Below, in pieces: positions 3,555-39,213 of a stretch of 42,047 bases of DNA (the stretch's first letter is position 1; the number at the start of each line of letters is the position of its first letter). The notes under the pieces were generated by a model, which worked only from the letters and a program-made list of their open reading frames with translations, was not told the DNA's origin and did no database searches. Origin of the DNA: a virus (lineage: Duplodnaviria > Heunggongvirae > Uroviricota > Caudoviricetes). The position numbers and the translations under genes are program-made. The stretch lies in the IMG/VR virus record IMGVR_UViG_2660238591_000003; one strand, 5' to 3'.

Positions 3555-4750
3555 GACGTCACCGTGATAACGATGTTTGCCGGTTTACATGAAGCTGATT
3601 CGTCGTAGGCTATGGTTATGTTTGCCGATGCTACGGATCCTGCTGATTTACCGATGAGTAATTCCTGGATGTCGTAATAACGCGCGCTACCGCCGCTGAC
3701 CACCCCGAGGTTGGCAGGTGAATAAATGCGGCTCAGCAGCACCGAATCACCGATCGTCAGGTCGTTGATGTAATCCGCAACGGCCTGCTGAATCTCCTTA
3801 CCTATTTGTGATGTGTAACCCGCGAAAGCTTTCAGCGTTATATGTCCATAAATAGGAACATCCGTTGACCGGGAGAAGCGAATCACATGGGGATTACCGT
3901 ATTTATCCGGCACCGTGACGGCTGTCGCACCATACGTTGACACCCCCTGCCCCTTATTGCCCCGGATGGCCTGGGCGATTTCAGTCAGATCGCCGCCATC
4001 CACGATGGCAGAGATAGAGTGTGGCGGCAGCCCATTACTGTCGGTCGTGCCGGTATCATTCTCGTAGAGCTTGTGACGTGTAACCCCTGCAACGTTCACT
4101 ATCGCGCCGTCCACCCCTTCAAACGGCGTGATGGAGGGTAGCGCGACACTCTGCCCCTGCCGGATGCGCAGCTCTGCGTCGGTTTCCGCCGGGGATCCGA
4201 CGGTGGCCGCCGCGGGGTTAGTTACCGAAGTCCAGCCGCGGGTCGGTGTGTTAATGGTCGTGACCGTTCCGGACAGCGCGGCCACTGCGCCGCTATTTGA
4301 GCAGGTGGCAGTGACCGTCGCCGTCCCGTCTAAACCAATTACCACGGAAGCCGGCATGCTCCAGACCAGGCCATTCTTATCCCTGACGGAGCCATTCGAA
4401 ATGGTCGTACCGGCCGCGCCGGTAAGCAGCAAATCAACCGTTGAGTTGGTAGCCGTTCTCCTTTTAATACCGTTTATTTTCACGTTCTTGCTCAGCCCTG
4501 CGCCATAAGCGGTGGCAGGCGAAAAGCTGTTGTAAACAGCAATGGCCGTGTTGTTAGCATCGTGAATAGCCAGGGCCACCAGCGCCACCATCTGCCCGTC
4601 TTTGCTGTCAGGATCCAGATAAGCATCGCTGCCATATATCTGCTTAAAGTAGTTGGTCAGGGTGTCCAGTATTGTCTGGTAATCAGGCGCGCTGATCCCC
4701 TCAGCGGTTACCGTTGCCGATAAGCCGAGCGTGTCCAAATTGAGGGCCAT
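3551..4750 (-). CDS. baseplate J-like protein (Mu gp47 / P2 gpJ family)
   Basis: 399 aa. Position between the gp46-like gene and the fibre genes. Composition typical of baseplate J family members. Confidence 0.75.
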   Translation of the reverse strand: MALNLDTLGLSATVTAEGISAPDYQTILDTLTNYFKQIYGSDAYLDPDSKDGQMVALVALAIHDANNTAIAVYNSFSPATAYGAGLSKNVKINGIKRRTATNSTVDLLLTGAAGTTISNGSVRDKNGLVWSMPASVVIGLDGTATVTATCSNSGAVAALSGTVTTINTPTRGWTSVTNPAAATVGSPAETDAELRIRQGQSVALPSITPFEGVDGAIVNVAGVTRHKLYENDTGTTDSNGLPPHSISAIVDGGDLTEIAQAIRGNKGQGVSTYGATAVTVPDKYGNPHVIRFSRSTDVPIYGHITLKAFAGYTSQIGKEIQQAVADYINDLTIGDSVLLSRIYSPANLGVVSGGSARYYDIQELLIGKSAGSVASANITIAYDESASCKPANIVITVTS

Positions 4751-28098: not shown

Positions 28099-28332
28099 CT
28101 AATAAAACCAGTCGTCAGCGCTTTCCCAGGTATCCTGGAGGATTGATTCAATTTTCTTTTTATCGTCCTTGTCACCACCAAAAACACTTAACCCATCGGC
28201 CCCGGCACGGCGGATTGTGAGCCTGCAATTGTCATAGTGATCATTCAGGCGCTTAAGCAGTTCTTTCTCCAGTGCTGGTACTGCGCCTTTAGGAAGTTCT
28301 TTCATGCGATCAATGGTTAATTCAACTTTCAT
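28099..28332 (-). CDS. dinI: DinI-family protein (SOS-inducible RecA modulator homologue)
   Basis: 77 aa: MKVELTIDRMKELPKGAVPALEKEL...KKKIESILQDTWESADDWFY, closely resembling E. coli DinI (...ISEILQETWESADDWF). A consensus LexA box lies immediately upstream. Confidence 0.85.
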   Translation of the reverse strand: MKVELTIDRMKELPKGAVPALEKELLKRLNDHYDNCRLTIRRAGADGLSVFGGDKDDKKKIESILQDTWESADDWFY

Positions 28333-28350
28333 AATGGCCCCCATTGCATG

Positions 28351-28370
28351 TACTGTGTTTTTATACAGTA
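28351..28370. promoter_or_regulatory. LexA (SOS) box
   Basis: TACTGTGTTTTTATACAGTA fits CTGT-N8-ACAG. It lies 7-19 nt upstream of the dinI-like start codons and overlaps a TATAAA -10-like element. Confidence 0.8.
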
Positions 28371-28430
28371 TACCTATGCGCGGAAATGATCAACGTTTTA
28401 AGAGCACAAATTGTTAATTTTCTGTCAGTT

Positions 28431-28460
28431 GTAAAAAAAGAAAACCCGCCGTAGCGGGTT
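28431..28460 (-). terminator. intrinsic terminator (- strand)
   Basis: Stem AACCCGC/GCGGGTT followed on the - strand by TTTCTTTTTTTAC; insulates the dinI promoter. Confidence 0.6.
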
Positions 28461-28823
28461 GAATTAGCAGTGTTATATTAAGCGGCAATTTCTTTCTGCC
28501 GGCACAATCCCGAGAGATTCGCCCTCTGTATCGCATCATCAATGAGCACCTGTATGACCATGAGGCAAAGCGTTATCCAACTTGCATTCATCTTTTTCAA
28601 TCAGCAAAGGAGTGGTTAGTGCTGTGAGTGGGCTTTGTTCACTTCATGGTAGATAAATCAGCTATGGATAAGTGATAAGAGGTGAAATCAATCCGAATTA
28701 ACAACCTGAAGCACATTAATCGGAACACAGATATTAAAATCCTAAAGTCTAGTAACAAATAGCCGATATGAGATATTGCTTATCAGTTTAAAAATCATCT
28801 ATTGAAAAAATGGGGGGGAGGCG

Positions 28824-29387
28824 TTGAAGCGAGTAGAGCGCGATTTTATCTGTCTGTTTAATTGTGTGTGGTATCAAGATTTCCCTGTGTTCAAAGGTGA
28901 ATATATCAACCGTTCCAACTGGACCATTCATGTTGGCCTGGTCATGCGCGAGTGTGCAAAGTTAATGGGCGCAAGAACATTTTTTGAACAAGGCGGGCGT
29001 ACCGATGCGGTCCTACAATATCCAGACAATCAAATTTTAACCTATGTTGAGTGGGAGTATAATCAGGCAGACAGAGATAGCGTTAACGAGTTAGACAAAC
29101 TGCTTGAAAAAAACGACAAGTGCTATTTCTCCACATTCATCTCATATTGTCAGCATGAAAACATCAATATTGTTATTGAAAAAGCAAGTAGAATATGGAG
29201 TGAAGCAAGCAGGCCTTTGATTTTTTTTCTTATCACCTATGAGCCTCAAACGAAAAAACGCCGCCATTTTTTAGAACTCAGAACTTATTTTTTCTCAAAC
29301 GGCAAAAGAAAACTAGTTCGCAAACAACCTGCGCTTCCATGGGATATTGAGCAACGAAAATACAATGTCGAAGAAGATGCAGGATAG
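28824..29387 (+). CDS. hypothetical protein in an AT-rich island (candidate accessory/defence gene)
   Basis: 187 aa. TTG start preceded by GGGGGGAGG. Opposite strand to all flanking phage early genes. No motif I can assign. Confidence 0.55.
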   Translation: MKRVERDFICLFNCVWYQDFPVFKGEYINRSNWTIHVGLVMRECAKLMGARTFFEQGGRTDAVLQYPDNQILTYVEWEYNQADRDSVNELDKLLEKNDKCYFSTFISYCQHENINIVIEKASRIWSEASRPLIFFLITYEPQTKKRRHFLELRTYFFSNGKRKLVRKQPALPWDIEQRKYNVEEDAG

Positions 29388-29426
29388 AAGAGACATAAGG
29401 TTTTCACGACAGTCTCGTTCCGAGCC

Positions 29427-29808
29427 CTAACTAAAATATTCTGTTCGGAGCAACCAAATAGCTCTGGCTTTGCTGTGACCATGTTCGCGGTACCAACGCC
29501 TCTCTAGGTCCGCTTCTCGCTCATGGTGGACCAAAATCAAATCTAAAATGACGTGGCTAAGCGGGAGTACATAGTGAATGACAGGATGCTCCGGGCAGCA
29601 CCATACTAATTCAGTTCCCGTCAGAGGTAGGCGTTGCTTCATGATGGGATGAGCGCTCCCTCCAGACAATCCATGCGACAGCCGCCTCCCATGATATATA
29701 TCCATTACCGCCATTTTTCGCTCTGCGGAGATTAACTGCATCACCAAACCTTTCAATGATGAATTTTTCAAATTCTATGCGTTTTTCTTCGTCGATTGTT
29801 GAATCCAT
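29427..29808 (-). pseudogene. possible decayed gene (two overlapping frames)
   Basis: Track ORFs 29611..29808 and 29427..29771 overlap in different frames in AT-rich DNA. Confidence 0.3.
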
Positions 29809-30087
29809 ACCTTCCCCAGAAGAGTCCTACGAATCGCTCTTATTGCATAAAAAATAGCATATACAATAGAGAGTGAAAAACCGACGTAGCGGGTTAACTT
29901 TATGTTACTCATGAGTCTTGTCTCGCTGCGACTTAAAAGCGGAACATTCTCGCGCAAGTTGCGTTGCTAAAGCTACGGGGTTGAATGGCTCTCCATGCCC
30001 ATTTAAGAAGGCATGCGGTGTGTAGTTGAACGTTATTTAAAACACAGATAGAATCAAGAAAAATCCTAAATAAATGGAATATTGTTT

Positions 30088-30468
30088 ATGGCTAAGAAAA
30101 TCGCATTACTGGGCTTTTCTGCTCTTTTTGTTGCAAGTGTTGCTTTTGCTGAAACGACAAGTAACTGGGTTGAGGTTACTACAGCTGATGATGGCATTTT
30201 TTCAGCAAAAAAAGGCACATTTAGAAATGTAAAAGGTGATTCATCTGCCTTGTTCATGTATCAAACAAAAAATAAAAAAGTAGAGTACTACAAAGTTAGT
30301 ATTAAAGATGCCGACTGTGATAGTGGATATGGGGAGATAAGATTCTTCTATATGGATGGGAAATTAGCTTTCAAAGGTGATTATGTTGCTGATGGGAACA
30401 GTGTTGGCGCAGGTATTGGTGATTTTATGTGTGGAGTCAGAATTGGACTTAACACACAAAAAAGTTAA
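30088..30468 (+). CDS. hypothetical secreted protein (moron)
   Basis: 126 aa. Signal peptide MAKKIALLGFSALFVASVAFA/ET; two Cys in the mature part. AT-rich. Confidence 0.6.
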   Translation: MAKKIALLGFSALFVASVAFAETTSNWVEVTTADDGIFSAKKGTFRNVKGDSSALFMYQTKNKKVEYYKVSIKDADCDSGYGEIRFFYMDGKLAFKGDYVADGNSVGAGIGDFMCGVRIGLNTQKS

Positions 30469-30882
30469 ATGAGGGGCATTTGTTAAAAAACAATAGCCCC
30501 ACATTAGATCAATATTGGCTCCGGCATTTCTGGATAAAAGCTTCTATGCTACGGCGCTCATAGCGAACAATCTTAGCGCTGAACTTTACACGGGGCCAAT
30601 GTAGACCGGTGTCGGTGTTCTGTATTCCATTTACATAATGTTTTTTGCGTAATTCCCAGCTTCTGGCATACCTCGCCCGGAGTGAGGAGATCATCAGGTT
30701 GCTCAGTCATGTTATGCCTCGCTGTTATCTGGGGTGATGATTAGCAGCTTCCAGATGGCTGAGACATACATAGCCTGATGTTTCGCATCGACTAGGGCAT
30801 TATGCATGTCACCTTCAAACGGCATGTCCCGAGTTCTCCCTTTTCGCCGCTTTCGCGTCGCATATTCTCCAAACGGTATTTA

Positions 30883-33176: not shown

Positions 33177-33734
33177 TCATAGCGCACCACCCAGCATCGT
33201 TGTAACCATCGCCATAATGGGCGCCACAGAATCAGGTCCGTCCAGGTAGAGCTTGGCTACGATGCTCTCGCTGATTTCCTTCATCCGTTCGTGTCTGGGG
33301 GCTTTGAGGACGACAGCCTGTATCGCCTCAGCGTCTTCTTTCACCGACCTGGCGACACGAACCGCAAAGCAGTCGTGCTTAATCACGCGATCCCGGTACG
33401 CCAGCGGCAGAACCGAAATTATTACCGGCGCCAGCTGCTCGACGTTCGCCCGGTAGGCCGGTGATTTCTCGTGGTTGTCCAGCCAGCGAAACAGCTTCAC
33501 GTTCCACACATCGGCGCTGCCGGTCATGTCAATGCTGTCAAGCTCGGCCTGTTCGGCAGCCTCTTTAATCGCCAGAGCGACCGCCACGCGGCCCTCTGCC
33601 GCCGCCCAGGCGCGGACGGCAGAACAGATAGCCCGGTGATCGACCGGCTGGCCTTCAGCCTCACTGTGTTGATACTGGAATTTCAGGTGCTCTGATGGCG
33701 CTCTGTTATTCTGTTGAAAAGAAAGTGTTTGCAT
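33177..33734 (-). CDS. YdaT-like protein (cII position)
   Basis: 185 aa directly downstream of the cro-like gene. Segment WNVKLFRWLDNHEKSPAYRANVEQLAPVIISVLPLAYRDR resembles Rac YdaT as recalled. Confidence 0.5.
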   Translation of the reverse strand: MQTLSFQQNNRAPSEHLKFQYQHSEAEGQPVDHRAICSAVRAWAAAEGRVAVALAIKEAAEQAELDSIDMTGSADVWNVKLFRWLDNHEKSPAYRANVEQLAPVIISVLPLAYRDRVIKHDCFAVRVARSVKEDAEAIQAVVLKAPRHERMKEISESIVAKLYLDGPDSVAPIMAMVTTMLGGAL

Positions 33735-33745
33735 TGTCAGTGCTC

Positions 33746-33964
33746 CTACTTTGGTAATCCGTCAGTGGGATTTGGATAGAGATCAGGGCGCAGCTCGTGG
33801 GGGGTTACGCCTGTCATTTTGAAAATCGGGAAGATATAGCTTGGCGGGACGATCCCTTGGTCACGATTCTTCCAATGACTTACAGACATACTCGTCACAC
33901 CAAGCGCGATGCTGAGCTTTCTGGCAGAGCCAGCGGCTTTAATTGCTTTATCGAGTGCGGACAT
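33746..33964 (-). CDS. Cro/YdaS-like HTH regulator
   Basis: 72 aa with HTH (ARKLSIALGVTSMSVSHWKN). Divergent from the repressor gene; RBS AGGAGAAG. Confidence 0.7.
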   Translation of the reverse strand: MSALDKAIKAAGSARKLSIALGVTSMSVSHWKNRDQGIVPPSYIFPIFKMTGVTPHELRPDLYPNPTDGLPK

Positions 33965-34066
33965 GTGCTTCTCCTGCTTATTGATAGCAGAAGTAAACCA
34001 CAGATTTATACTTCATGCAAACTTTGGATTTATTGCGTGCATAAACCAAATATTTACAATGACCAT
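33965..34066. promoter_or_regulatory. immunity-region operator/promoter (OR-like), divergent promoters
   Basis: Palindromes CTGCTtattgatAGCAG (33974-33990) and TTTGGATTTAT...ATAAACCAAA (34023-34050). A TACAAT -10-like element sits 7 nt before the repressor ATG, which would give a leaderless mRNA. - strand promoter TTGCAT-17-TTTACT for the cro-like gene. Confidence 0.55.
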
Positions 34067-34456
34067 ATGAGAAAAGAAGAACCCAACCTCGTTCTGGTGG
34101 AGCGCCTTACTGAGATCACTGATCGCGGCGTTACCAAAGCAGACATGGCAAGAATAGCTGGAGTCACCCCTCAGGCCGTAAACGGCTGGTTCAAAAAAGG
34201 CGTGATTAGTAAGAAATCGGCACTGGCCATAGCCGACGCTGTTGGTATTTCTGTCGCCTGGCTACTCGGTGAAGACGTTGGGGAGAAAGACGGTCTCAAA
34301 CCGGACGAACAGCGTTTGCTCGAGCTCTACCGCCAGTTACCGGAAGAAGAGCAGCAGAACATGCTCCGCATTTTTGCGCTTCGCCTGAAAGAGTTAGATG
34401 AGCTGTACGAGAAGTACATGAAGGGTCGGATTCGATCGCAAGGTGAGCAAACCTAA
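34067..34456 (+). CDS. phage repressor (cI/RacR-like, HTH only, no S24 peptidase domain)
   Basis: 129 aa with HTH (VTKADMARIAGVTPQAVNGWFKKG). No autocleavage domain present. The track ORF's upstream extension is discounted. Confidence 0.75.
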   Translation: MRKEEPNLVLVERLTEITDRGVTKADMARIAGVTPQAVNGWFKKGVISKKSALAIADAVGISVAWLLGEDVGEKDGLKPDEQRLLELYRQLPEEEQQNMLRIFALRLKELDELYEKYMKGRIRSQGEQT

Positions 34457-34520
34457 ACCAGTAGTATCTAATTCCATGTAATAAAAATATTTCAAGATTT
34501 AATATCTTCTGGAGGATTCG

Positions 34521-34802
34521 GTGTCTAAAGAAACAACCGTCGAACTTATGCATCTTAATGATGTAATCGAAGCGAAAAATTTCATCGAGACCAATGCTGA
34601 CGGTGTCGTAACAATCGGCACACAAAATGCCGGTTACGAAGTTTACAATTTTGTGTTCCTGAATAGCAGCCCGATCATCGGTACGGATAATGCGGATATA
34701 GTCGTCAAGGGCATGCAGCGAACCAAAGTTGTGTCTGTGACTTTAAGCAAACAAAAGGCTTATGATTTTTATCAATCCTTAAAAAGTATGTTTGAGGAAT
34801 AA
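34521..34802 (+). CDS. hypothetical protein A of a repressor-linked cassette
   Basis: 93 aa. Same strand and likely same transcript as the repressor. AT-rich. Confidence 0.6.
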   Translation: MSKETTVELMHLNDVIEAKNFIETNADGVVTIGTQNAGYEVYNFVFLNSSPIIGTDNADIVVKGMQRTKVVSVTLSKQKAYDFYQSLKSMFEE

Positions 34803-34805
34803 TAA

Positions 34806-35330
34806 TTGATGGATGCGGCTCAATCATCTCTTGGTGAAGGGAAGTTATTGATTGCATATTCAGACCATAGCGGAGCTACAGTAGGCTTAGAGTTTTCATC
34901 AGTAGCTTCGAGCCAAGCAACCTTCCTTATGGGTGCTTGTAGTTTTGCCGCTTCGGATAAACAAAAACGGATTGTCACATCAGTTGCTATGGATGATACT
35001 GAAATCATTCATACGTCAACTGAAGATGGAGGTGACGACATGGAAAAGAGATTGGCTATTCTTGAGGTTGAAGTTGCCCACATCAAGAAAGATGTTGCCG
35101 AGATAAAAAACACAGTTTCAAAAGTTGATACGACAGTGAATTCACTGGACAAAAATATGGCTGTAGTTTTGGAGAGGCTGTCTAGTATCAAAGAGTCTGT
35201 AGACAAAAAGCCCTCATCAGACACAGTGGACAAGAAAATCTCTGATGCTAAATTGGCGATTCTCTTAGGTGTCCCTGCGATTATCGCCATTGGTACAGGG
35301 CTGTACAAAGCTTTTATGCACTTCTTTTAG
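34806..35330 (+). CDS. hypothetical protein B: coiled-coil protein with a single C-terminal transmembrane helix
   Basis: 174 aa. Start 4-7 nt after the stop of A. Heptad-like LAILEVEVAHIKKDVAEIKNTVSKVDTTVNSL and C-terminal TM LAILLGVPAIIAIGTGLY (reminiscent of XhlA-type proteins). Followed by a strong terminator. Confidence 0.6.
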   Translation: MMDAAQSSLGEGKLLIAYSDHSGATVGLEFSSVASSQATFLMGACSFAASDKQKRIVTSVAMDDTEIIHTSTEDGGDDMEKRLAILEVEVAHIKKDVAEIKNTVSKVDTTVNSLDKNMAVVLERLSSIKESVDKKPSSDTVDKKISDAKLAILLGVPAIIAIGTGLYKAFMHFF

Positions 35331-35402
35331 TCAGATTTGGTCAATACGCCTGAGTTATAAGGCTCTCAGCTACTAACTCTGTCGCCTTCCCCGAACCTTC
35401 TC

Positions 35403-35431
35403 ATCCCGACCACGCGTCGGGATTTTTTTTG
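35403..35431 (+). terminator. intrinsic terminator ending the repressor-cassette transcript
   Basis: Stem ATCCCGAC/GTCGGGAT, loop CACGC, then TTTTTTTT. Confidence 0.75.
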
Positions 35432-35504
35432 CCTGCGATTCTGCAGACGTGTCACAAAACCCAGCCACATAAACCTCAGATTTACAATTAACACTAACCT
35501 TAAG

Positions 35505-35533
35505 TTGACACATATATAAACCAGTGATTTAAT
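35505..35533 (+). promoter_or_regulatory. sigma70-like promoter (PL-like) for the early recombination/excision operon
   Basis: TTGACA, 17-nt spacer, TTTAAT. The nearby ATTTACAAT motif is shared with the OR region. Confidence 0.5.
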
Positions 35534-35786
35534 CTAACTCACCAAGACGCACCACGAACCACCCAGGCATGGAGCCCACGAAGTAGCCGTCCGGGGCATA
35601 CGAAAACCGGAATGAGGTGGTGATATTAACGCGCAGTAGGTTTGAAACGTTCCGCCAGCCTGGCGACAAGGGCAAACACAGAAGTGAGCTTCGCGGTGGT
35701 GAATTGCAGAGTTAAAACGCTCAACTGTGAAGATCAGCGTCACGGCACCACCAGCGAAGTTCACTCAGCAATAGTGGAGAACATCA

Positions 35787-36165: not shown

Positions 36166-36303
36166 CGAAAACCCCGCGCAAGGCGAGATTCACGTCCGGT
36201 GCCACCGACCAAAGTTACACCGGAATTTATACCAAACCAAAAAACATCCAATGGGCGCTATCTCTGGCCCGGGGATTCTAACACTCAAAAAAGAGGATCT
36301 CAC

Positions 36304-39213
36304 ATGGAATTTTTCCATCTGATAAAAGCCAGTCAGAAGTCTGGCAAGAAAGATGCAGTGATTTGGTTCACTGCGAAAAGTGTAGCGCGCGCCAATCTCC
36401 AACTCGATGTGGCACTGGAAGAAGCCGGAATTGAAGAAACTGGCCGCGGTAAAGATTATGCCAAACCAATCCGCACCGATTTCCCGGTATATGACGACCT
36501 GCCGGAAGAAGGCGCAGTGGATTACACCTGGTGCAAACGCTACGAACTGCAGAACGATGACCGCACCTGGATGCCAAAAGTCACAGCTGAAAACTCTGAC
36601 GAGAAAACGGCTCAGACCGTTGATAGTCACATAACTACTGAGTCAACGCTGCCAGAAACCGCTGGCATCACGCTGGACGAACACGACGACGACTCAACCC
36701 TCTACCCGGTAGTGCAGATGCCGTTTCGTAAGCAACTGCTTTCCCAGTTCACCGCCGACGAACTGCGCCACCACGTAACCCGCGAAGAGTACGAAGCTAT
36801 CGGCGCGCTGGAGATGGACACTGATAACAGTTACGTCCAGAACTTGCTGTTAGCTGCTGAGAACTGCCCGGACGTGAAGGGTTACGACACCAAAGACCTG
36901 TGGCGCTACACCGATGCCATTCGCAAAGTGTTCAGCCAGGACAAGCGTCACGAACTCGCGCTGGTACTCCGTTTCACCAGAATGTGGGCGGCGACTGATT
37001 ACATTGACCGTGGCATCCTGGCGCGTGAATGGGCTGCCGGTAATCACATCAGTAGTGTTCAGCGTACTGATTCCGGAACCAATGCCAACGGCGGTTACGT
37101 CACTGACCGTGGACCTGATGCATACCATACCCTTGACACTCTCGATTTAGAGATTGCATGTGCCCTTCTGCCTATGGACTTCAACCACTTCGAGATCCCG
37201 GGCAGCATTCTTCGTCGCGCTAAAGAAATCGTGACCAAAAAAGAAGAACCGTGGAAATCATGGAGCAGCATTCTGCGCAATCAACCCGGCGTTCTTGGCG
37301 TTAACCGCACAGCTATTTTTAACCTGATACGTATCGCGCCGGAAAATATTCATCTAACTCCTGTCGCTCACCTGGAGTTTGTTAACCGGACCATGACTGC
37401 TGCGTTTAATGCTGCTGTTGAGTTATTGCCATTGCATGAAGCTGAGCCCGCAACACAGGAAATTCCCCAACCTGAAAGTAAGGAGTCTCCACGCAAACCC
37501 TTCTGCACTCACGAAGAGAACCTGCAACGCGTACGTGAAGAAGAAGCACGCCGCCGCGCAGAGGAAGCGACAGCACAACCACATAAAGCCGAACAAGAAC
37601 TGGTTAAAAATGTCGGCAACGGAATATTCGATGTTACGGCTTTACTGCAGAACTCAGCAACTCATGGCACGAAACAGGCTACGGAAACCACCAGCAATGT
37701 GCAGGTTCAAGAAACTGTCAGTGATGAAAAAAATGTTGGTAATGAAATGCAGTCAGGCGAAAGCAGTCTGGAAACTGGTGAAGAGTCACATCCCGGCCAG
37801 CAGGCCGATGTAAACCAAAATACGGAATCTGTCGCTCAAAATAGCGATTCTGTAAACCAGACTGAACCAGTTTTGGCACACGTCGAGCCAGAGGCGCAAT
37901 CTGACGAACAAGCTGTTTTTTACCCCGATTACTTCGAGCCTGGGCGCTATGAAGGTCTGCCGAACGAGGTTTACCACGCTGCCAACGGCATCAGTTCCAC
38001 CCAGGTAAAAGATGCGCGCGTTTCGCTGATGTACTTCAATGCGCGCCACGTTGAGAAAACCATCGTCAAAGAGCGCTCCTCAGTGCTGGACATGGGAAAC
38101 CTGGTACATGCGCTGGCGTTGCAGCCAGAACAGCTCGATGAAGAATTTAGCGTTGAACCCGTAATTCCGGAAGGTGCATTTACCACCACGGCAACGATCC
38201 GCGCGTTTATTGATGAGTACAACGCCAGCCTGCCAGCGCAACTGAGCGCAGACGATATCAAAGCTTTGCTGGATGAATACAACGCCACCCTGCCAGCGCT
38301 GGTGCCGCTGGGCGCTAGCCTGGATGAAACGGCGCAGAACTATATGGCGCTGCCAGCTGAATTCCAACGTATCGATGCAGATCAGAAGAAGACAGCAACA
38401 GCAATGAAGGCGTGCATCAAAGAGTACAACGCCACCCTGCCAGCGCAGATTAAAACCAGCGGCAGCCGCGACGCACTACTCGAACAACTTGCGATTATCA
38501 ATCCTGACCTGGTCGCGCAGGAAGCTCAGAAGCTGCAACCGCTGAAAGTCTCTGGCACGAAGGCCGATCTGATTCAGGCCGTGAAGGCAGTCAAACCAGA
38601 TGCAGTGTTCGCCGACGAGCTGCTCGATGCGTGGCGCAACAACCCGGAAGGGAAAGTGCTGGTTACCCACCAGCAACTTGCCACCGCGCAGGCAATTCAG
38701 TCAGCACTGCTCTCGCACCCGACCGCAGGCATGCTGCTAACCCACCCGAGCCGCGCCGTTGAGGTGAGCTACTTTGGCTTTGACGAGGAGACGGGACTGG
38801 AAGTTCGTGTGCGCCCTGACCTTGAGATCGACCTAGACGGCGTGCGTATCGGTGCTGACCTGAAAACCATCAGCATGTGGAATGTTAAGCAGGAAAGCCT
38901 GCGCGCCAGGCTACACCGGGAAATTATTGAACGTGATTATCACCTGAGCGCGGCTATGTACTGCGAAACCGCAGCGCTGGATCAGTTCTTCTGGATTTTC
39001 GTCAACAAAGACGAGAACTACCACTGGATCGCCATCATCGAGGCATCCGCTGAACTACTGGAGCTGGGTATGCTCGAGTACCGCAAAGCGATGCGCAATA
39101 TCGCAACCGGATTCGACACAGGTGAATGGCCAGCGCCAATCACTGCTGACTACACCGACGAACTGAACGACTTCGACCTGCGCCGCCTTGAAGCGCTGCG
39201 TACTCAGGCATAA
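36304..39213 (+). CDS. recE: RecE-like exonuclease (C-terminal PD-(D/E)xK nuclease domain with long N-terminal extension)
   Basis: ATG at 36304 with AAGAGGA upstream. C-terminal motif VRPDLEIDLDGVRIGADLKT. Immediately followed by a RecT-like gene. Internal triplicated EYNA(S/T)LPA repeat. Confidence 0.7.
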   Translation: MEFFHLIKASQKSGKKDAVIWFTAKSVARANLQLDVALEEAGIEETGRGKDYAKPIRTDFPVYDDLPEEGAVDYTWCKRYELQNDDRTWMPKVTAENSDEKTAQTVDSHITTESTLPETAGITLDEHDDDSTLYPVVQMPFRKQLLSQFTADELRHHVTREEYEAIGALEMDTDNSYVQNLLLAAENCPDVKGYDTKDLWRYTDAIRKVFSQDKRHELALVLRFTRMWAATDYIDRGILAREWAAGNHISSVQRTDSGTNANGGYVTDRGPDAYHTLDTLDLEIACALLPMDFNHFEIPGSILRRAKEIVTKKEEPWKSWSSILRNQPGVLGVNRTAIFNLIRIAPENIHLTPVAHLEFVNRTMTAAFNAAVELLPLHEAEPATQEIPQPESKESPRKPFCTHEENLQRVREEEARRRAEEATAQPHKAEQELVKNVGNGIFDVTALLQNSATHGTKQATETTSNVQVQETVSDEKNVGNEMQSGESSLETGEESHPGQQADVNQNTESVAQNSDSVNQTEPVLAHVEPEAQSDEQAVFYPDYFEPGRYEGLPNEVYHAANGISSTQVKDARVSLMYFNARHVEKTIVKERSSVLDMGNLVHALALQPEQLDEEFSVEPVIPEGAFTTTATIRAFIDEYNASLPAQLSADDIKALLDEYNATLPALVPLGASLDETAQNYMALPAEFQRIDADQKKTATAMKACIKEYNATLPAQIKTSGSRDALLEQLAIINPDLVAQEAQKLQPLKVSGTKADLIQAVKAVKPDAVFADELLDAWRNNPEGKVLVTHQQLATAQAIQSALLSHPTAGMLLTHPSRAVEVSYFGFDEETGLEVRVRPDLEIDLDGVRIGADLKTISMWNVKQESLRARLHREIIERDYHLSAAMYCETAALDQFFWIFVNKDENYHWIAIIEASAELLELGMLEYRKAMRNIATGFDTGEWPAPITADYTDELNDFDLRRLEALRTQA

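What the first reader, a model, noticed from the sequence alone, without database searches (positions are those of the whole stretch)
34457..35431. AT-rich two-gene cassette co-transcribed with the repressor, in the lambda rexAB slot: candidate lysogen-expressed exclusion/abortive-infection module
Seen in sequence: the short cI-like repressor (34067..34456) is followed on the same strand by ORF A (34521..34802, 93 aa) and ORF B (34806..35330, 174 aa). B starts 4-7 nt after A's stop. A strong intrinsic terminator (35403-35431) closes the unit before a PL-like promoter. B has an acidic N-terminal half, a heptad-like coiled coil and one C-terminal TM helix. Both genes are visibly AT-rich (about 40% G+C by eye) against mid-50s% flanking phage DNA. 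Established knowledge: this slot holds lysogen-expressed protective genes in lambda (rexA/rexB), P22 and Rac (sieB). Inference: a membrane-acting two-component exclusion or abortive-infection system, or a lysogenic-conversion factor, that I cannot match to a known family.
Basis: partly seen in the sequence, partly recalled or inferred. Interest (0 to 1): 0.75.

Follow-up and report, generated by a model that had tools for sequence, protein, structure and literature searches.

The report
Repressor-linked two-gene membrane module, function untested
Between a prophage's repressor gene and its early promoter sit two uncharacterised genes, one for a small soluble protein and one for a membrane-anchored coiled-coil protein, that belong to a large unnamed family found in the genome positions where phages keep anti-phage genes, so they are a good but unproven defence candidate.

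Summary
A 129-aa HTH repressor (34067-34456) is followed on the same strand by A (34521-34802, 93 aa) and B (34809-35330, 173 aa). A terminator (35403-35431) and a PL-like promoter follow. The unit lies between four copies of one operator and has 40.7% G+C, against 52.9% for the window.

No Pfam, NCBIfam, PADLOC, PDB or fold match identifies A or B. They fall only in PHROG families of unknown function.

B has four parts: a variable head, a Gly-rich linker, a conserved 8-heptad coiled coil and a C-terminal transmembrane anchor. In 54 distinct modules from 114 loci, every B-like gene has a tightly coupled upstream partner gene. At least five unrelated partner types each go with their own head. 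Divergence in A tracks the head (r = 0.96), not the rest of B (r = 0.57).

In 34 of 41 distinct loci the module follows a cI-type repressor. It also occurs after mnt in a P22-like phage (the sieA position) and upstream of tape-measure genes. Sister prophages on the same backbone carry PDC-M63, HicAB or other cargo in this slot.

My best reading is an anti-phage module expressed in the lysogen, with a soluble sensor and a membrane effector, analogous to RexAB but not homologous to it. No function has been tested. A conserved GGAGG-N7-ATG inside B suggests a second, headless isoform.

The parts
33994..34056 (.). Rightward operator region: two copies of the 15-nt operator-like repeat TAAACCnnnGATTTA (33994-34008 and 34042-34056), between cro (33746-33964, minus strand) and the repressor gene
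   Evidence: repeat family D1, 4 copies at 87-100% identity; ORFs
34067..34456 (+). Short cI-type/DicA-like HTH repressor (129 aa, no S24 peptidase domain). The likely -10, TACAAT at 34055-34060, lies 6 nt before the ATG, so the mRNA may be leaderless (inference).
   Evidence: HTH_3 1.5e-6; Phage_CI_repr 8.6e-4; DicA 1.9e-8, below cut-off
34457..34520 (+). 64-nt AT-rich spacer with the Shine-Dalgarno GGAGGA (34510-34515). No terminator and no consensus promoter were found in it. Upstream sequence is not conserved among modules joined to different repressors.
34521..34802 (+). Gene A: 93-aa soluble partner protein (phrog_12039). It is predicted to be beta-rich with a C-terminal helix and has no signal peptide or TM segment.
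   Evidence: 1.6e-47; AF2 pLDDT 46, so only the secondary structure is usable
34809..35039 (+). Gene B, head region (residues 1-77). It is acidic, with a beta-hairpin plus helix (residues 11-50), and ends in the linker DGGDD. This head occurs only in modules that have an A-type partner.
   Evidence: (pLDDT 72-78 for residues 11-50)
35028..35042 (+). Candidate internal translation start inside B: GGAGG (35028-35032), 7 nt, then in-frame ATG (35040, Met78). It would give a 96-aa headless isoform.
   Evidence: 27 of 31 distinct upstream 18-mers carry GGAGG, against about 12.8 expected from synonymous resampling. Gene callers produce the 96-aa product P0281 on 280 contigs.
35040..35249 (+). Gene B, conserved coiled coil (about residues 78-134, 8 heptads) and the KKPSxD motif
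35250..35330 (+). Gene B, C-terminal transmembrane anchor KLAILLGVPAIIAIGTGLYK, a 6-residue tail and the stop codon. The predicted topology is N-terminus in the cytoplasm (tail-anchored).
   Evidence: (L153 L154 G155 V156 P157 I159 I160 G163 T164 invariant in alignment A3)
35403..35431 (+). Intrinsic terminator closing the repressor-A-B unit
   Evidence: -12.6 kcal/mol, z = -3.0. Related modules have a different conserved terminator directly after B, which has decayed here.
35470..35534 (+). Leftward operator and promoter region: operator copies at 35470-35484 and 35517-35531, and the PL-like promoter TTGACA (35506-35511), 17 nt, TTTAAT (35529-35534)
   Evidence: the promoter is read from the sequence and was not reported by the scanner

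Best explanation
The cassette is a horizontally acquired cargo module carried inside the immunity region of a Rac-like E. coli prophage. It is most probably transcribed with the repressor in the lysogen.

It encodes a small cytoplasmic protein (A) and a tail-anchored inner-membrane protein (B). Almost all of B faces the cytoplasm. B consists of an acidic head, a flexible Gly-rich linker, an oligomerising coiled coil and a sequence-constrained transmembrane helix.

I propose that A and the head of B form the specificity or sensor part, and that the coiled coil plus TM helix is the effector. On infection by another phage, the A-head complex is disturbed. The membrane part then acts either by permeabilising or depolarising the inner membrane (abortive infection) or by blocking a membrane step of the invader. 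In logic this resembles RexA/RexB, without any homology to them.

A second product, starting at the internal GGAGG-N7-ATG and lacking the head, may modulate the full-length protein.

Shown: the anatomy, the modular family, the pairing of partner with head, the genomic slots, and the absence from known families.
Inferred: cotranscription, A-head binding, topology, the internal start, and the anti-phage role with its mechanism.
For: 1. Position. The cassette lies between matching operator sets, with no terminator after the repressor and a strong one after B. The homologous pair has the same position in HK544, VT1-Sakai, Salmonella P22-like prophages and Klebsiella prophages, next to quite different repressors.
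2. Link to repressors. In 41 distinct loci the gene upstream of the module has HTH_3 in 34 and Peptidase_S24 in 24.
3. Other slots. In the P22-like phage UPF_BP1 a module follows mnt and abuts gene 16; P22 sieA lies beside mnt (PMC10883804). In phage S107 and locus L016 the module lies upstream of the tape-measure gene.
4. Cargo hotspot. On the same backbone (identical YdaS and YdaT proteins), other strains carry PDC-M63A/B (E = 9e-40 and 9e-44), HicAB, or other small-protein plus membrane-protein pairs in this slot. The region between cI and N is described as a common site of accessory genes (PMC7067206, citing Degnan 2007).
5. Modularity. 54 distinct modules were found in 114 loci, each with a coupled partner gene (gap -40 to +30 nt). 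At least five unrelated partner types each go with their own head on one conserved chassis.
6. A co-inherits with the head. Correlation of pairwise distances is 0.96 with the head and 0.57 with the C-terminal part; the Mantel test gives p = 2e-4. The HK544 allele is 75% (A), 81% (head) and 33% (rest of B) identical to the window. The DNA breakpoint lies inside the coiled coil.
7. The TM helix is nearly invariant across module types, including a proline and small-xxx-small motifs. That is more than a passive anchor would need.
8. Expression. The protein of the A homologue ECs2991 was detected in O157:H7 cultures.
9. Low G+C relative to the prophage.
Against: - No phenotype of any kind is known for any member, and no paper on function was found. 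Two relevant papers, Degnan 2007 and Brenes & Laub 2025, could not be read.
- Evidence from genomic position is indirect. The same slots also carry toxin-antitoxin genes and regulators.
- A bitopic protein with only about 6 periplasmic residues is not an obvious channel.
- The AF2 models are weak (B pLDDT 62.5, A 46), and no complex could be modelled, so A-head binding is inferred only from co-inheritance.
- The internal-start signal is partly explained by the Gly-Gly codons themselves. The expected frequency is already 0.28-0.65 per module type, and the sequences are not independent.
- Cotranscription with the repressor is not shown. AT-rich spacers could hide a promoter.
Confidence: 0.5

Rival explanations
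1. Superinfection exclusion at DNA entry. B sits in the inner membrane and, with A, blocks genome injection of incoming phages. It would do so by binding an inner-membrane injection factor or ejected phage proteins, as P22 SieA or HK97 gp15 do, and the cell would survive.
For: A module occupies the sieA position next to mnt in UPF_BP1. Modules also lie upstream of tape-measure genes. B is a membrane protein.
Against: Nearly all of B, all of A, and all of the variable (presumably specificity-determining) parts are predicted to be cytoplasmic. Only about 6 residues would reach the periplasm. There is no sequence relation to any known exclusion protein in Pfam or PADLOC.
Confidence: 0.15
2. A prophage-internal regulator rather than a defence. 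The pair tunes the lysis-lysogeny switch, induction or lysis timing of its own phage, for example by tethering a regulator to the membrane. RexA is now reported to bias the lambda switch in a comparable way.
For: The module is strictly adjacent to repressor genes of several kinds (cI-type, short HTH, Mnt). RexA has such a role in lambda (bioRxiv 10.1101/2021.04.19.439022 and PMC11077077, listed). The possible two-isoform arrangement recalls holin/antiholin pairs.
Against: The same module is joined to unrelated repressors and switch genes, so it cannot depend on a specific partner in the switch. Sister prophages lack it and carry unrelated cargo instead, so it is dispensable. Some modules lie among tail genes, far from any repressor.
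Confidence: 0.12
3. A toxin-antitoxin-like addiction or stress module, or a lysogenic-conversion factor. B would be a small membrane toxin held in check by A, stabilising the prophage or altering host membrane physiology, with no role against phages.
For: The gene order (small soluble protein first, membrane protein second, tightly coupled) is typical of toxin-antitoxin pairs. HicAB occupies the same slot in strain AR_0118. Tail-anchored coiled-coil proteins of E. coli such as ElaB/YqjD are stress proteins (from memory, not tested).
Against: The diversity of partner/head pairs on one chassis is hard to explain by addiction alone. Most of the protein is cytoplasmic, which argues against a surface-conversion factor. 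Many toxin-antitoxin pairs act in defence, so this rival overlaps with the best explanation.
Confidence: 0.13
4. The ORFs are non-functional passengers or annotation artefacts in AT-rich spacer DNA.
For: Both are annotated only as hypothetical proteins, with inconsistent start sites.
Against: Both ORFs are conserved as proteins across Enterobacterales down to 31-37% identity, with intact frames. The chassis profile finds 53 cluster representatives at E <= 1e-10. The A homologue has been detected as a protein.
Confidence: 0.02

Closest known systems
Lambda RexA/RexB
   Same: Same slot (between the repressor gene and PL, inside the immunity region, closed by a terminator). Same two-gene layout of a soluble protein followed by an inner-membrane protein. 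In HK544, which has the lambda cI, the A-B pair literally replaces rexAB.
   Different: No sequence or fold relation. RexB is a polytopic membrane protein and RexA a larger DNA-binding protein (established knowledge; PMC11077077). B has a single C-terminal TM helix plus a coiled coil, and A has only 93 aa.
P22 SieA and HK97 gp15 (membrane superinfection-exclusion proteins)
   Same: They are expressed from the prophage, are membrane-located, and sit in the same genome positions where family members are found: beside mnt and upstream of the tape-measure gene.
   Different: They are single-gene systems with membrane-embedded or periplasm-facing proteins. Here there are two genes and an almost wholly cytoplasmic protein. 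No homology was detected in the libraries searched. gp15 and SieA sequences were not compared directly.
P22 SieB/Esc and lambda S105/S107 (two products from one gene)
   Same: There may be a second, N-terminally shortened product from an in-frame internal start with its own Shine-Dalgarno. That product could antagonise or modulate the full-length membrane protein.
   Different: This is an analogy from memory only. The internal start is unproven, and there is no sequence relation.
XhlA-type phage proteins (PF10779) and other short proteins with a coiled coil and a C-terminal TM segment
   Same: Same overall architecture of coiled coil followed by a C-terminal TM segment. There are weak profile hits: phrog_937 'hemolysin' at 1.4e-5 for B, and XhlA at 21.6 bits for the distant relative P0131.
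   Different: The scores are below the family cut-off (34.7 bits) and cover only the coiled coil. XhlA genes lie in lysis cassettes, not beside repressors, and have no partner/head pairing.
PHROG families 12039, 12602, 3556, 6136 and 6324; HK544c104/HK544c103; ECs2991/ECs2992
   Same: True homologues. A matches phrog_12039 end to end (1.6e-47). B matches phrog_12602 (2.7e-54) and phrog_3556 (3.6e-28). The HK544 and Sakai genes are 74-75% (A) and 55% (B) identical to the window.
   Different: These are labels without function: 'unknown function' or 'conserved hypothetical protein'.

Membership tests
RexAB (lambda) | Sequence homology to RexA and RexB | tested here: not met
   No RexA or RexB family appears among the Pfam hits of A or B at E <= 1, and nothing in PADLOC.
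RexAB (lambda) | Membrane component with several TM helices | tested here: not met
   B has one hydrophobic segment, at the C-terminus.
RexAB (lambda) | Located between the repressor gene and PL | tested here: met
   HK544 and VT1-Sakai annotation.
RexAB (lambda) | Transcribed with the repressor in the lysogen | not testable with these tools
   No terminator lies between the repressor and A, which is consistent, but transcription itself cannot be tested here.
RexAB (lambda) | Excludes T4 rII and other phages by loss of membrane potential | not testable with these tools
   Needs phage challenge and membrane-potential assays.
SieB (P22, lambda, Rac) | Homology to SieB and a location within the PL operon beyond N | tested here: not met
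   No SieB family hit. In VT1-Sakai, sieB is a separate gene beyond N on the other strand, and the A-B pair is also present.
Known or candidate defence systems in PADLOC-DB v2.0.0 | Significant match of a component to a system model | tested here: not met
   A has no hits. B has only coiled-coil noise (LmuB 8.8e-4 at 16 bits). Six other module variants have none. The method does detect defence cargo: PDC-M63 was found in the same slot of a sister prophage.
XhlA (PF10779) | Score above the Pfam gathering threshold (34.7 bits) | tested here: not met
   XhlA is not among B's hits at E <= 1. The distant relative P0131 scores 21.6 bits.
PHROG 12039 (A); PHROG 12602 and 3556 (B) | Full-length profile match | tested here: met
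   A residues 1-93 align to profile positions 1-93 of 93. B residues 2-148 align to positions 1-147 of 183, and residues 64-174 to positions 156-265 of 276.
Family proposed here: head / Gly-rich linker / coiled coil / C-terminal TM chassis with a matched partner gene | Gly-rich linker, the M-x-x-R-[LIV]-A-x-LE coiled-coil start, KKPS motif and C-terminal TM segment | tested here: met
Family proposed here: head / Gly-rich linker / coiled coil / C-terminal TM chassis with a matched partner gene | Tightly coupled upstream partner gene whose type matches the head | tested here: met
Type II toxin-antitoxin systems | Toxic second gene neutralised by the first | not testable with these tools
   Only the gene order is compatible. 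No toxin-antitoxin family hit.
HK97 gp15 and P22 SieA | Sequence homology | not tested
   No direct comparison was run. Neither protein family appeared in the Pfam or PHROG hits.

The most novel reading that the evidence does not exclude
The A-B pair represents a widespread, unrecognised superfamily of prophage immune modules in Enterobacterales. A constant tail-anchored coiled-coil effector, possibly made in two forms from one gene through an internal start, is combined by recombination with interchangeable cytoplasmic heads. Each head is matched to its own small partner protein, giving many specificities on one killing or blocking device. The modules are placed in the three classical prophage exclusion slots: cI-PL, mnt-gene 16, and upstream of the tape-measure gene.
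Probability: 0.4. Interest if true: 0.8.

Novelty: new variant of a known kind. Interest (0 to 1): 0.62.

Why it matters
If the module is protective, it adds a compact two-gene immune system of only about 0.9 kb. It has no relation to any catalogued system and is carried by Stx1 prophages of E. coli O157:H7 and by prophages of Salmonella, Klebsiella, Enterobacter, Cronobacter and others.

Its design would make it a natural system for studying how sensing specificity is exchanged while the effector is kept: one conserved membrane chassis, with at least five unrelated partner/head pairs.

It also bears on an old question, what replaces rexAB in phages with lambda immunity that lack it, such as HK544. 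That question becomes directly testable, because HK544 is in routine laboratory use.

If the module is not a defence, a family this tightly tied to repressor genes would still point to an unknown aspect of lysogeny.

Tried and rejected
- **Family libraries.** Pfam, NCBIfam and PADLOC scans of A, B and eight other module variants gave only coiled-coil noise (SlyX, IcmG/DotF, LmuB, Lpp), all far below cut-offs.
- **Structure.** The AF2 model of A was unusable (pLDDT 46). The model of B was moderate (62.5). Foldseek searches of B against PDB and BFVD found nothing below E = 0.13. The afdb50 library was not available. Profile searches against PDB sequences gave nothing for A and only leucine zippers and Lpp for B.
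- **Internal homology.** hhalign found no relation between A and the head of B, between A and the other partner types, or between heads of different types. An origin by internal duplication is rejected.
- **Other systems checked in the literature.** Tai (PMC11364771), HepS (PMC13043305) and SNIPE (PMC13190303) are unrelated. HK544 appears in the Tai paper only as a challenge phage.
- **Literature by name.** Searches by locus tag and accession found only a proteome table.
- **Own promoter.** Alignment of the DNA upstream of A across modules showed no conserved promoter, so an autonomous promoter is neither supported nor excluded.
- **Genome-collection scan.** With the 25-sequence alignment it failed. 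With a narrower alignment it returned only 7 loci.
Full report
**1. What is in the window**

The region is the immunity region of a Rac-like prophage of E. coli.

On the minus strand lie a YdaS-type cro gene (33746-33964), a YdaT-type cII analogue (33177-33734) and a replication gene.

On the plus strand lie, in order:
- a short HTH repressor (34067-34456, 129 aa, no peptidase domain);
- gene A (34521-34802, 93 aa);
- gene B (34809-35330, 173 aa from the ATG; a TTG three bases earlier would give 174 aa);
- an intrinsic terminator (35403-35431; -12.6 kcal/mol, z = -3.0);
- a PL-like promoter (TTGACA 35506-35511, 17 nt, TTTAAT 35529-35534).

A 15-nt repeat, TAAACCnnnGATTTA, occurs twice between cro and the repressor and twice at the PL-like promoter. 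The cassette is therefore bracketed by the two operator sets, exactly as rexAB is in lambda.

The cassette has 40.7% G+C, against 52.9% for the window. Only 17 of 823 windows of equal size are as low. The exception is the statement that sieB occupies this slot: in VT1-Sakai, sieB is annotated beyond N on the other strand.

**2. What the proteins look like**

A has no signal peptide or TM segment. It is predicted to be beta-rich with a C-terminal helix, but the AF2 model has pLDDT 46 and gives no fold.

B has four parts:
- an acidic head (residues 1-77; 12 acidic and 4 basic residues) with a beta-hairpin plus helix of moderate confidence;
- a linker, DGGDD;
- an uninterrupted coiled coil of eight heptads (residues 78-134; 94% hydrophobic residues at a/d positions), followed by a KKPSxD motif;
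- a C-terminal hydrophobic helix, KLAILLGVPAIIAIGTGLYK, with six residues after it.

The lysine-rich stretch before the helix and the very short tail predict a tail-anchored protein with nearly all of its mass in the cytoplasm. This is an inference.

**3. Known families**

No Pfam, NCBIfam or PADLOC model reaches its threshold. The weak hits are coiled-coil noise. Foldseek against PDB and BFVD finds nothing with E below 0.13. Profile searches of PDB sequences give nothing for A and only leucine zippers and Lpp for B.

Both proteins belong to PHROG families of unknown function: A to phrog_12039, and B to phrog_12602 and phrog_3556. Every database name seen for cluster members is 'hypothetical protein', 'membrane protein' or an automatic coiled-coil label. 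The exact proteins occur on at least 1000 contigs each.

**4. The same pair in the same slot elsewhere**

Homologues (A 74-75% identical, B 55%) lie between cI and PL in three phages: HK544, whose repressor is the lambda cI; the Stx1 phage VT1-Sakai (ECs2991/ECs2992); and phiSTEC801-Stx1a.

In the HK544 immunity-region record they are 'conserved hypothetical proteins', followed by a terminator annotated as the equivalent of lambda Timm. A diverged pair (A 31%, head 37% identical) follows the c2-type repressor of Salmonella P22-like prophages.

In complete E. coli genomes, 106 of 5426 carry an A-type module. Thirteen of these have the window's allele.

**5. The larger pattern**

Searches with B found two kinds of relatives: full-length proteins, and shorter proteins that share only the linker, coiled coil and TM helix.

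I collected 114 loci from viral contigs, genomes and metagenomes, containing 54 distinct modules. In every case where upstream sequence is present, the B-like gene is preceded on the same strand by a tightly coupled gene, with a gap of -40 to +30 nt. The exception is two chromosomal Pantoea loci that have a headless gene.

The upstream partners fall into at least five groups with no detectable relation to each other:
- A-like (93-100 aa);
- an 87-91-aa type common in E. coli;
- an 88-aa type;
- beta-rich proteins of 136-187 aa (two clusters linked by hhalign at E = 4e-5);
- zinc-ribbon proteins of 118-119 aa (two clusters linked at E = 5e-6).

Each partner type goes with its own head sequence on B, and the A-type head never occurs without A. 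Heads of different types are unrelated, and A is unrelated to its head.

Within the A-type modules, pairwise divergence of A correlates with that of the head at r = 0.96, but with the rest of B at only r = 0.57. The HK544 allele illustrates this: A 75%, head 81% and remainder 33% identical to the window. DNA similarity ends inside the coiled coil, at about residue 93.

The TM segment itself comes in at least three exchangeable versions.

A profile of the chassis, searched against 1.84 billion cluster representatives, found 973 hits at E <= 1e-3 and 53 at E <= 1e-10. Many of the weaker ones are generic coiled coils. The clear relatives repeat one architecture: variable N-terminus, poly-glycine, MLEARVAKLE-type coiled coil, C-terminal TM segment. 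All fall in PHROG families of unknown function.

**6. Where the modules sit**

For 41 distinct loci, the gene upstream of the module carries HTH_3 in 34 and Peptidase_S24 in 24. So the module follows a cI-type repressor whatever its partner type (examples).

Two other positions were found:
- In the P22-like phage UPF_BP1 a module follows mnt and abuts gene 16. In P22, sieA lies beside mnt (PMC10883804).
- In Salmonella phage S107 and locus L016 the zinc-ribbon type lies among tail genes, just upstream of the tape-measure gene. From memory, the HK97 exclusion gene 15 occupies a comparable position.

The slot in the window is itself a cargo hotspot. Prophages with identical YdaS and YdaT proteins and the same downstream genes carry different cargo between the repressor and PL:
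- a 467-aa orphan protein;
- PDC-M63A/B, a PADLOC candidate defence system (E = 9e-40 and 9e-44);
- HicA/HicB with other small genes;
- a 101-aa protein weakly similar to one of the partner types, plus a different coiled-coil protein with a TM segment near its C-terminus;
- in phage PHB10, a zinc-ribbon protein plus a two-TM protein.

The literature describes the region between cI and N as a frequent site of accessory genes (PMC7067206, citing Degnan et al. 2007).

**7. Expression**

No terminator separates the repressor from A. The 64-nt spacer has a good Shine-Dalgarno but no consensus promoter. The sequence upstream of A is not conserved among modules joined to different repressors. This fits read-through from the repressor promoter, but does not prove it.

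The A homologue ECs2991 was detected as a protein in O157:H7 grown in rumen fluid (PMC3936929). This shows that the protein is made in lysogenic cultures, but not from which promoter.

**8. A possible second product of B**

The conserved Gly-Gly of the linker is encoded as GGA GGT. This gives GGAGG (35028-35032) seven bases before the conserved in-frame ATG of Met78 (35040).

Across nine module types, 27 of 31 distinct upstream 18-mers carry GGAGG 3-11 nt before the conserved ATG or GTG. About 12.8 would be expected from synonymous resampling. The sequences are not independent, and glycine codons make the motif likely anyway, so this is suggestive only.

Gene callers often choose this start. 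The 96-aa product is recorded on 280 contigs, and 96-99-aa versions appear among the homologues. A headless isoform could modulate the full-length protein, as Esc does for SieB in P22 (from memory). This needs a direct test.

**9. Interpretation**

The evidence shows a mobile, protein-coding, two-gene module of an uncharacterised but sizeable family. It has one conserved membrane chassis and exchangeable head/partner pairs. It is placed where prophages express genes during lysogeny, and where exclusion and defence genes are known to sit.

The near-invariance of the TM helix across module types suggests that it does more than anchor the protein.

I therefore favour an anti-phage function with cytoplasmic sensing by A plus the head, and action at the inner membrane. 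My overall confidence is about 0.5.

The rivals are:
- exclusion at DNA entry (0.15). It is less likely because the variable parts are cytoplasmic.
- a regulator of the prophage's own switch or lysis (0.12). It is weakened by the promiscuous association with unrelated repressors and by the module's dispensability in sister prophages.
- a toxin-antitoxin-like or host-physiology module (0.13). This overlaps with defence.

**10. Novelty**

The gene pair itself has been in databases since the Sakai genome and the HK544 immunity-region records, always as hypothetical. I found no report of function, but two pertinent papers could not be read.

What appears new is the recognition of the modular family, the head/partner pairing, the three slots and the candidate internal start. 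In kind, it would be another exclusion or abortive-infection module expressed from a prophage during lysogeny. In components and design it matches none that I could test.

Noticed in passing
window 35028-35042: A consensus Shine-Dalgarno (GGAGG) lies 7 nt before an in-frame ATG (Met78) inside gene B. It is formed by the conserved Gly-Gly codons and is conserved across most module types. A 96-aa headless isoform is possible, and many gene callers annotate that short form.
   Followed up: partly
window 34033-34069: The repressor ATG (34067) lies 6 nt after a TACAAT hexamer (34055-34060), with a poor -35 (TTGCGT) 16 nt upstream and no Shine-Dalgarno. The repressor mRNA may be leaderless, like lambda cI from PRM. 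RefSeq instead starts the gene at GTG 34037, inside an operator copy.
   Followed up: no
window 28250-30650: A second AT-rich stretch (G+C 0.39-0.40) lies next to a DinI-like gene (28099-28344). It holds orphan genes at 28824-29387 (187 aa) and 30082-30468 (128 aa, with a signal-peptide-like N-terminus). Neither has a PADLOC hit. This is probably another cargo region.
   Followed up: partly
window 36199-39213: A single 1004-aa ORF corresponds to what RefSeq annotates in strain NCTC11023 as two genes: a RecE-family exonuclease and a PD-(D/E)XK nuclease-like protein. It is followed by RecT. The early left operon has no recognisable N gene.
   Followed up: no
L128 3577-4979; L129 3471-5298; L127 3494-4897; L130 3471-4853; L131 3528-4654: On the same prophage backbone, the slot between repressor and PL holds at least five other cargos. 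These include PDC-M63A/B, HicAB with a YoaK-like small membrane protein, a 467-aa orphan protein, and two further pairs of a small protein with a membrane protein.
   Followed up: partly
L130 3907-4853 and L131 3528-4232: Partner-like proteins appear next to unrelated membrane proteins. One is a 101-aa protein weakly similar to the 88-aa partner type (E = 8e-5). The other is a zinc-ribbon protein weakly similar to the 119-aa type (E = 6e-4). This suggests that partners are also recombined with other effectors.
   Followed up: partly
L001 about 3560-3590, L025, L026 and L011 directly after the B-like stop; window 35331-35402: Most modules carry their own conserved terminator (ACCCGGCCnnnnGCCGGGTTTTTT) right after B, whatever the partner type. 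In the window this element has decayed, and a second terminator 70 nt further on is used. L025 has both.
   Followed up: partly
L008/L009 5974-6276 and L064 1022-1761: In Pantoea chromosomes, headless chassis genes (100 aa) lie next to an AraC-type regulator rather than in a prophage. In one Pantoea locus, two proteins with a coiled coil and a TM segment are in tandem.
   Followed up: no
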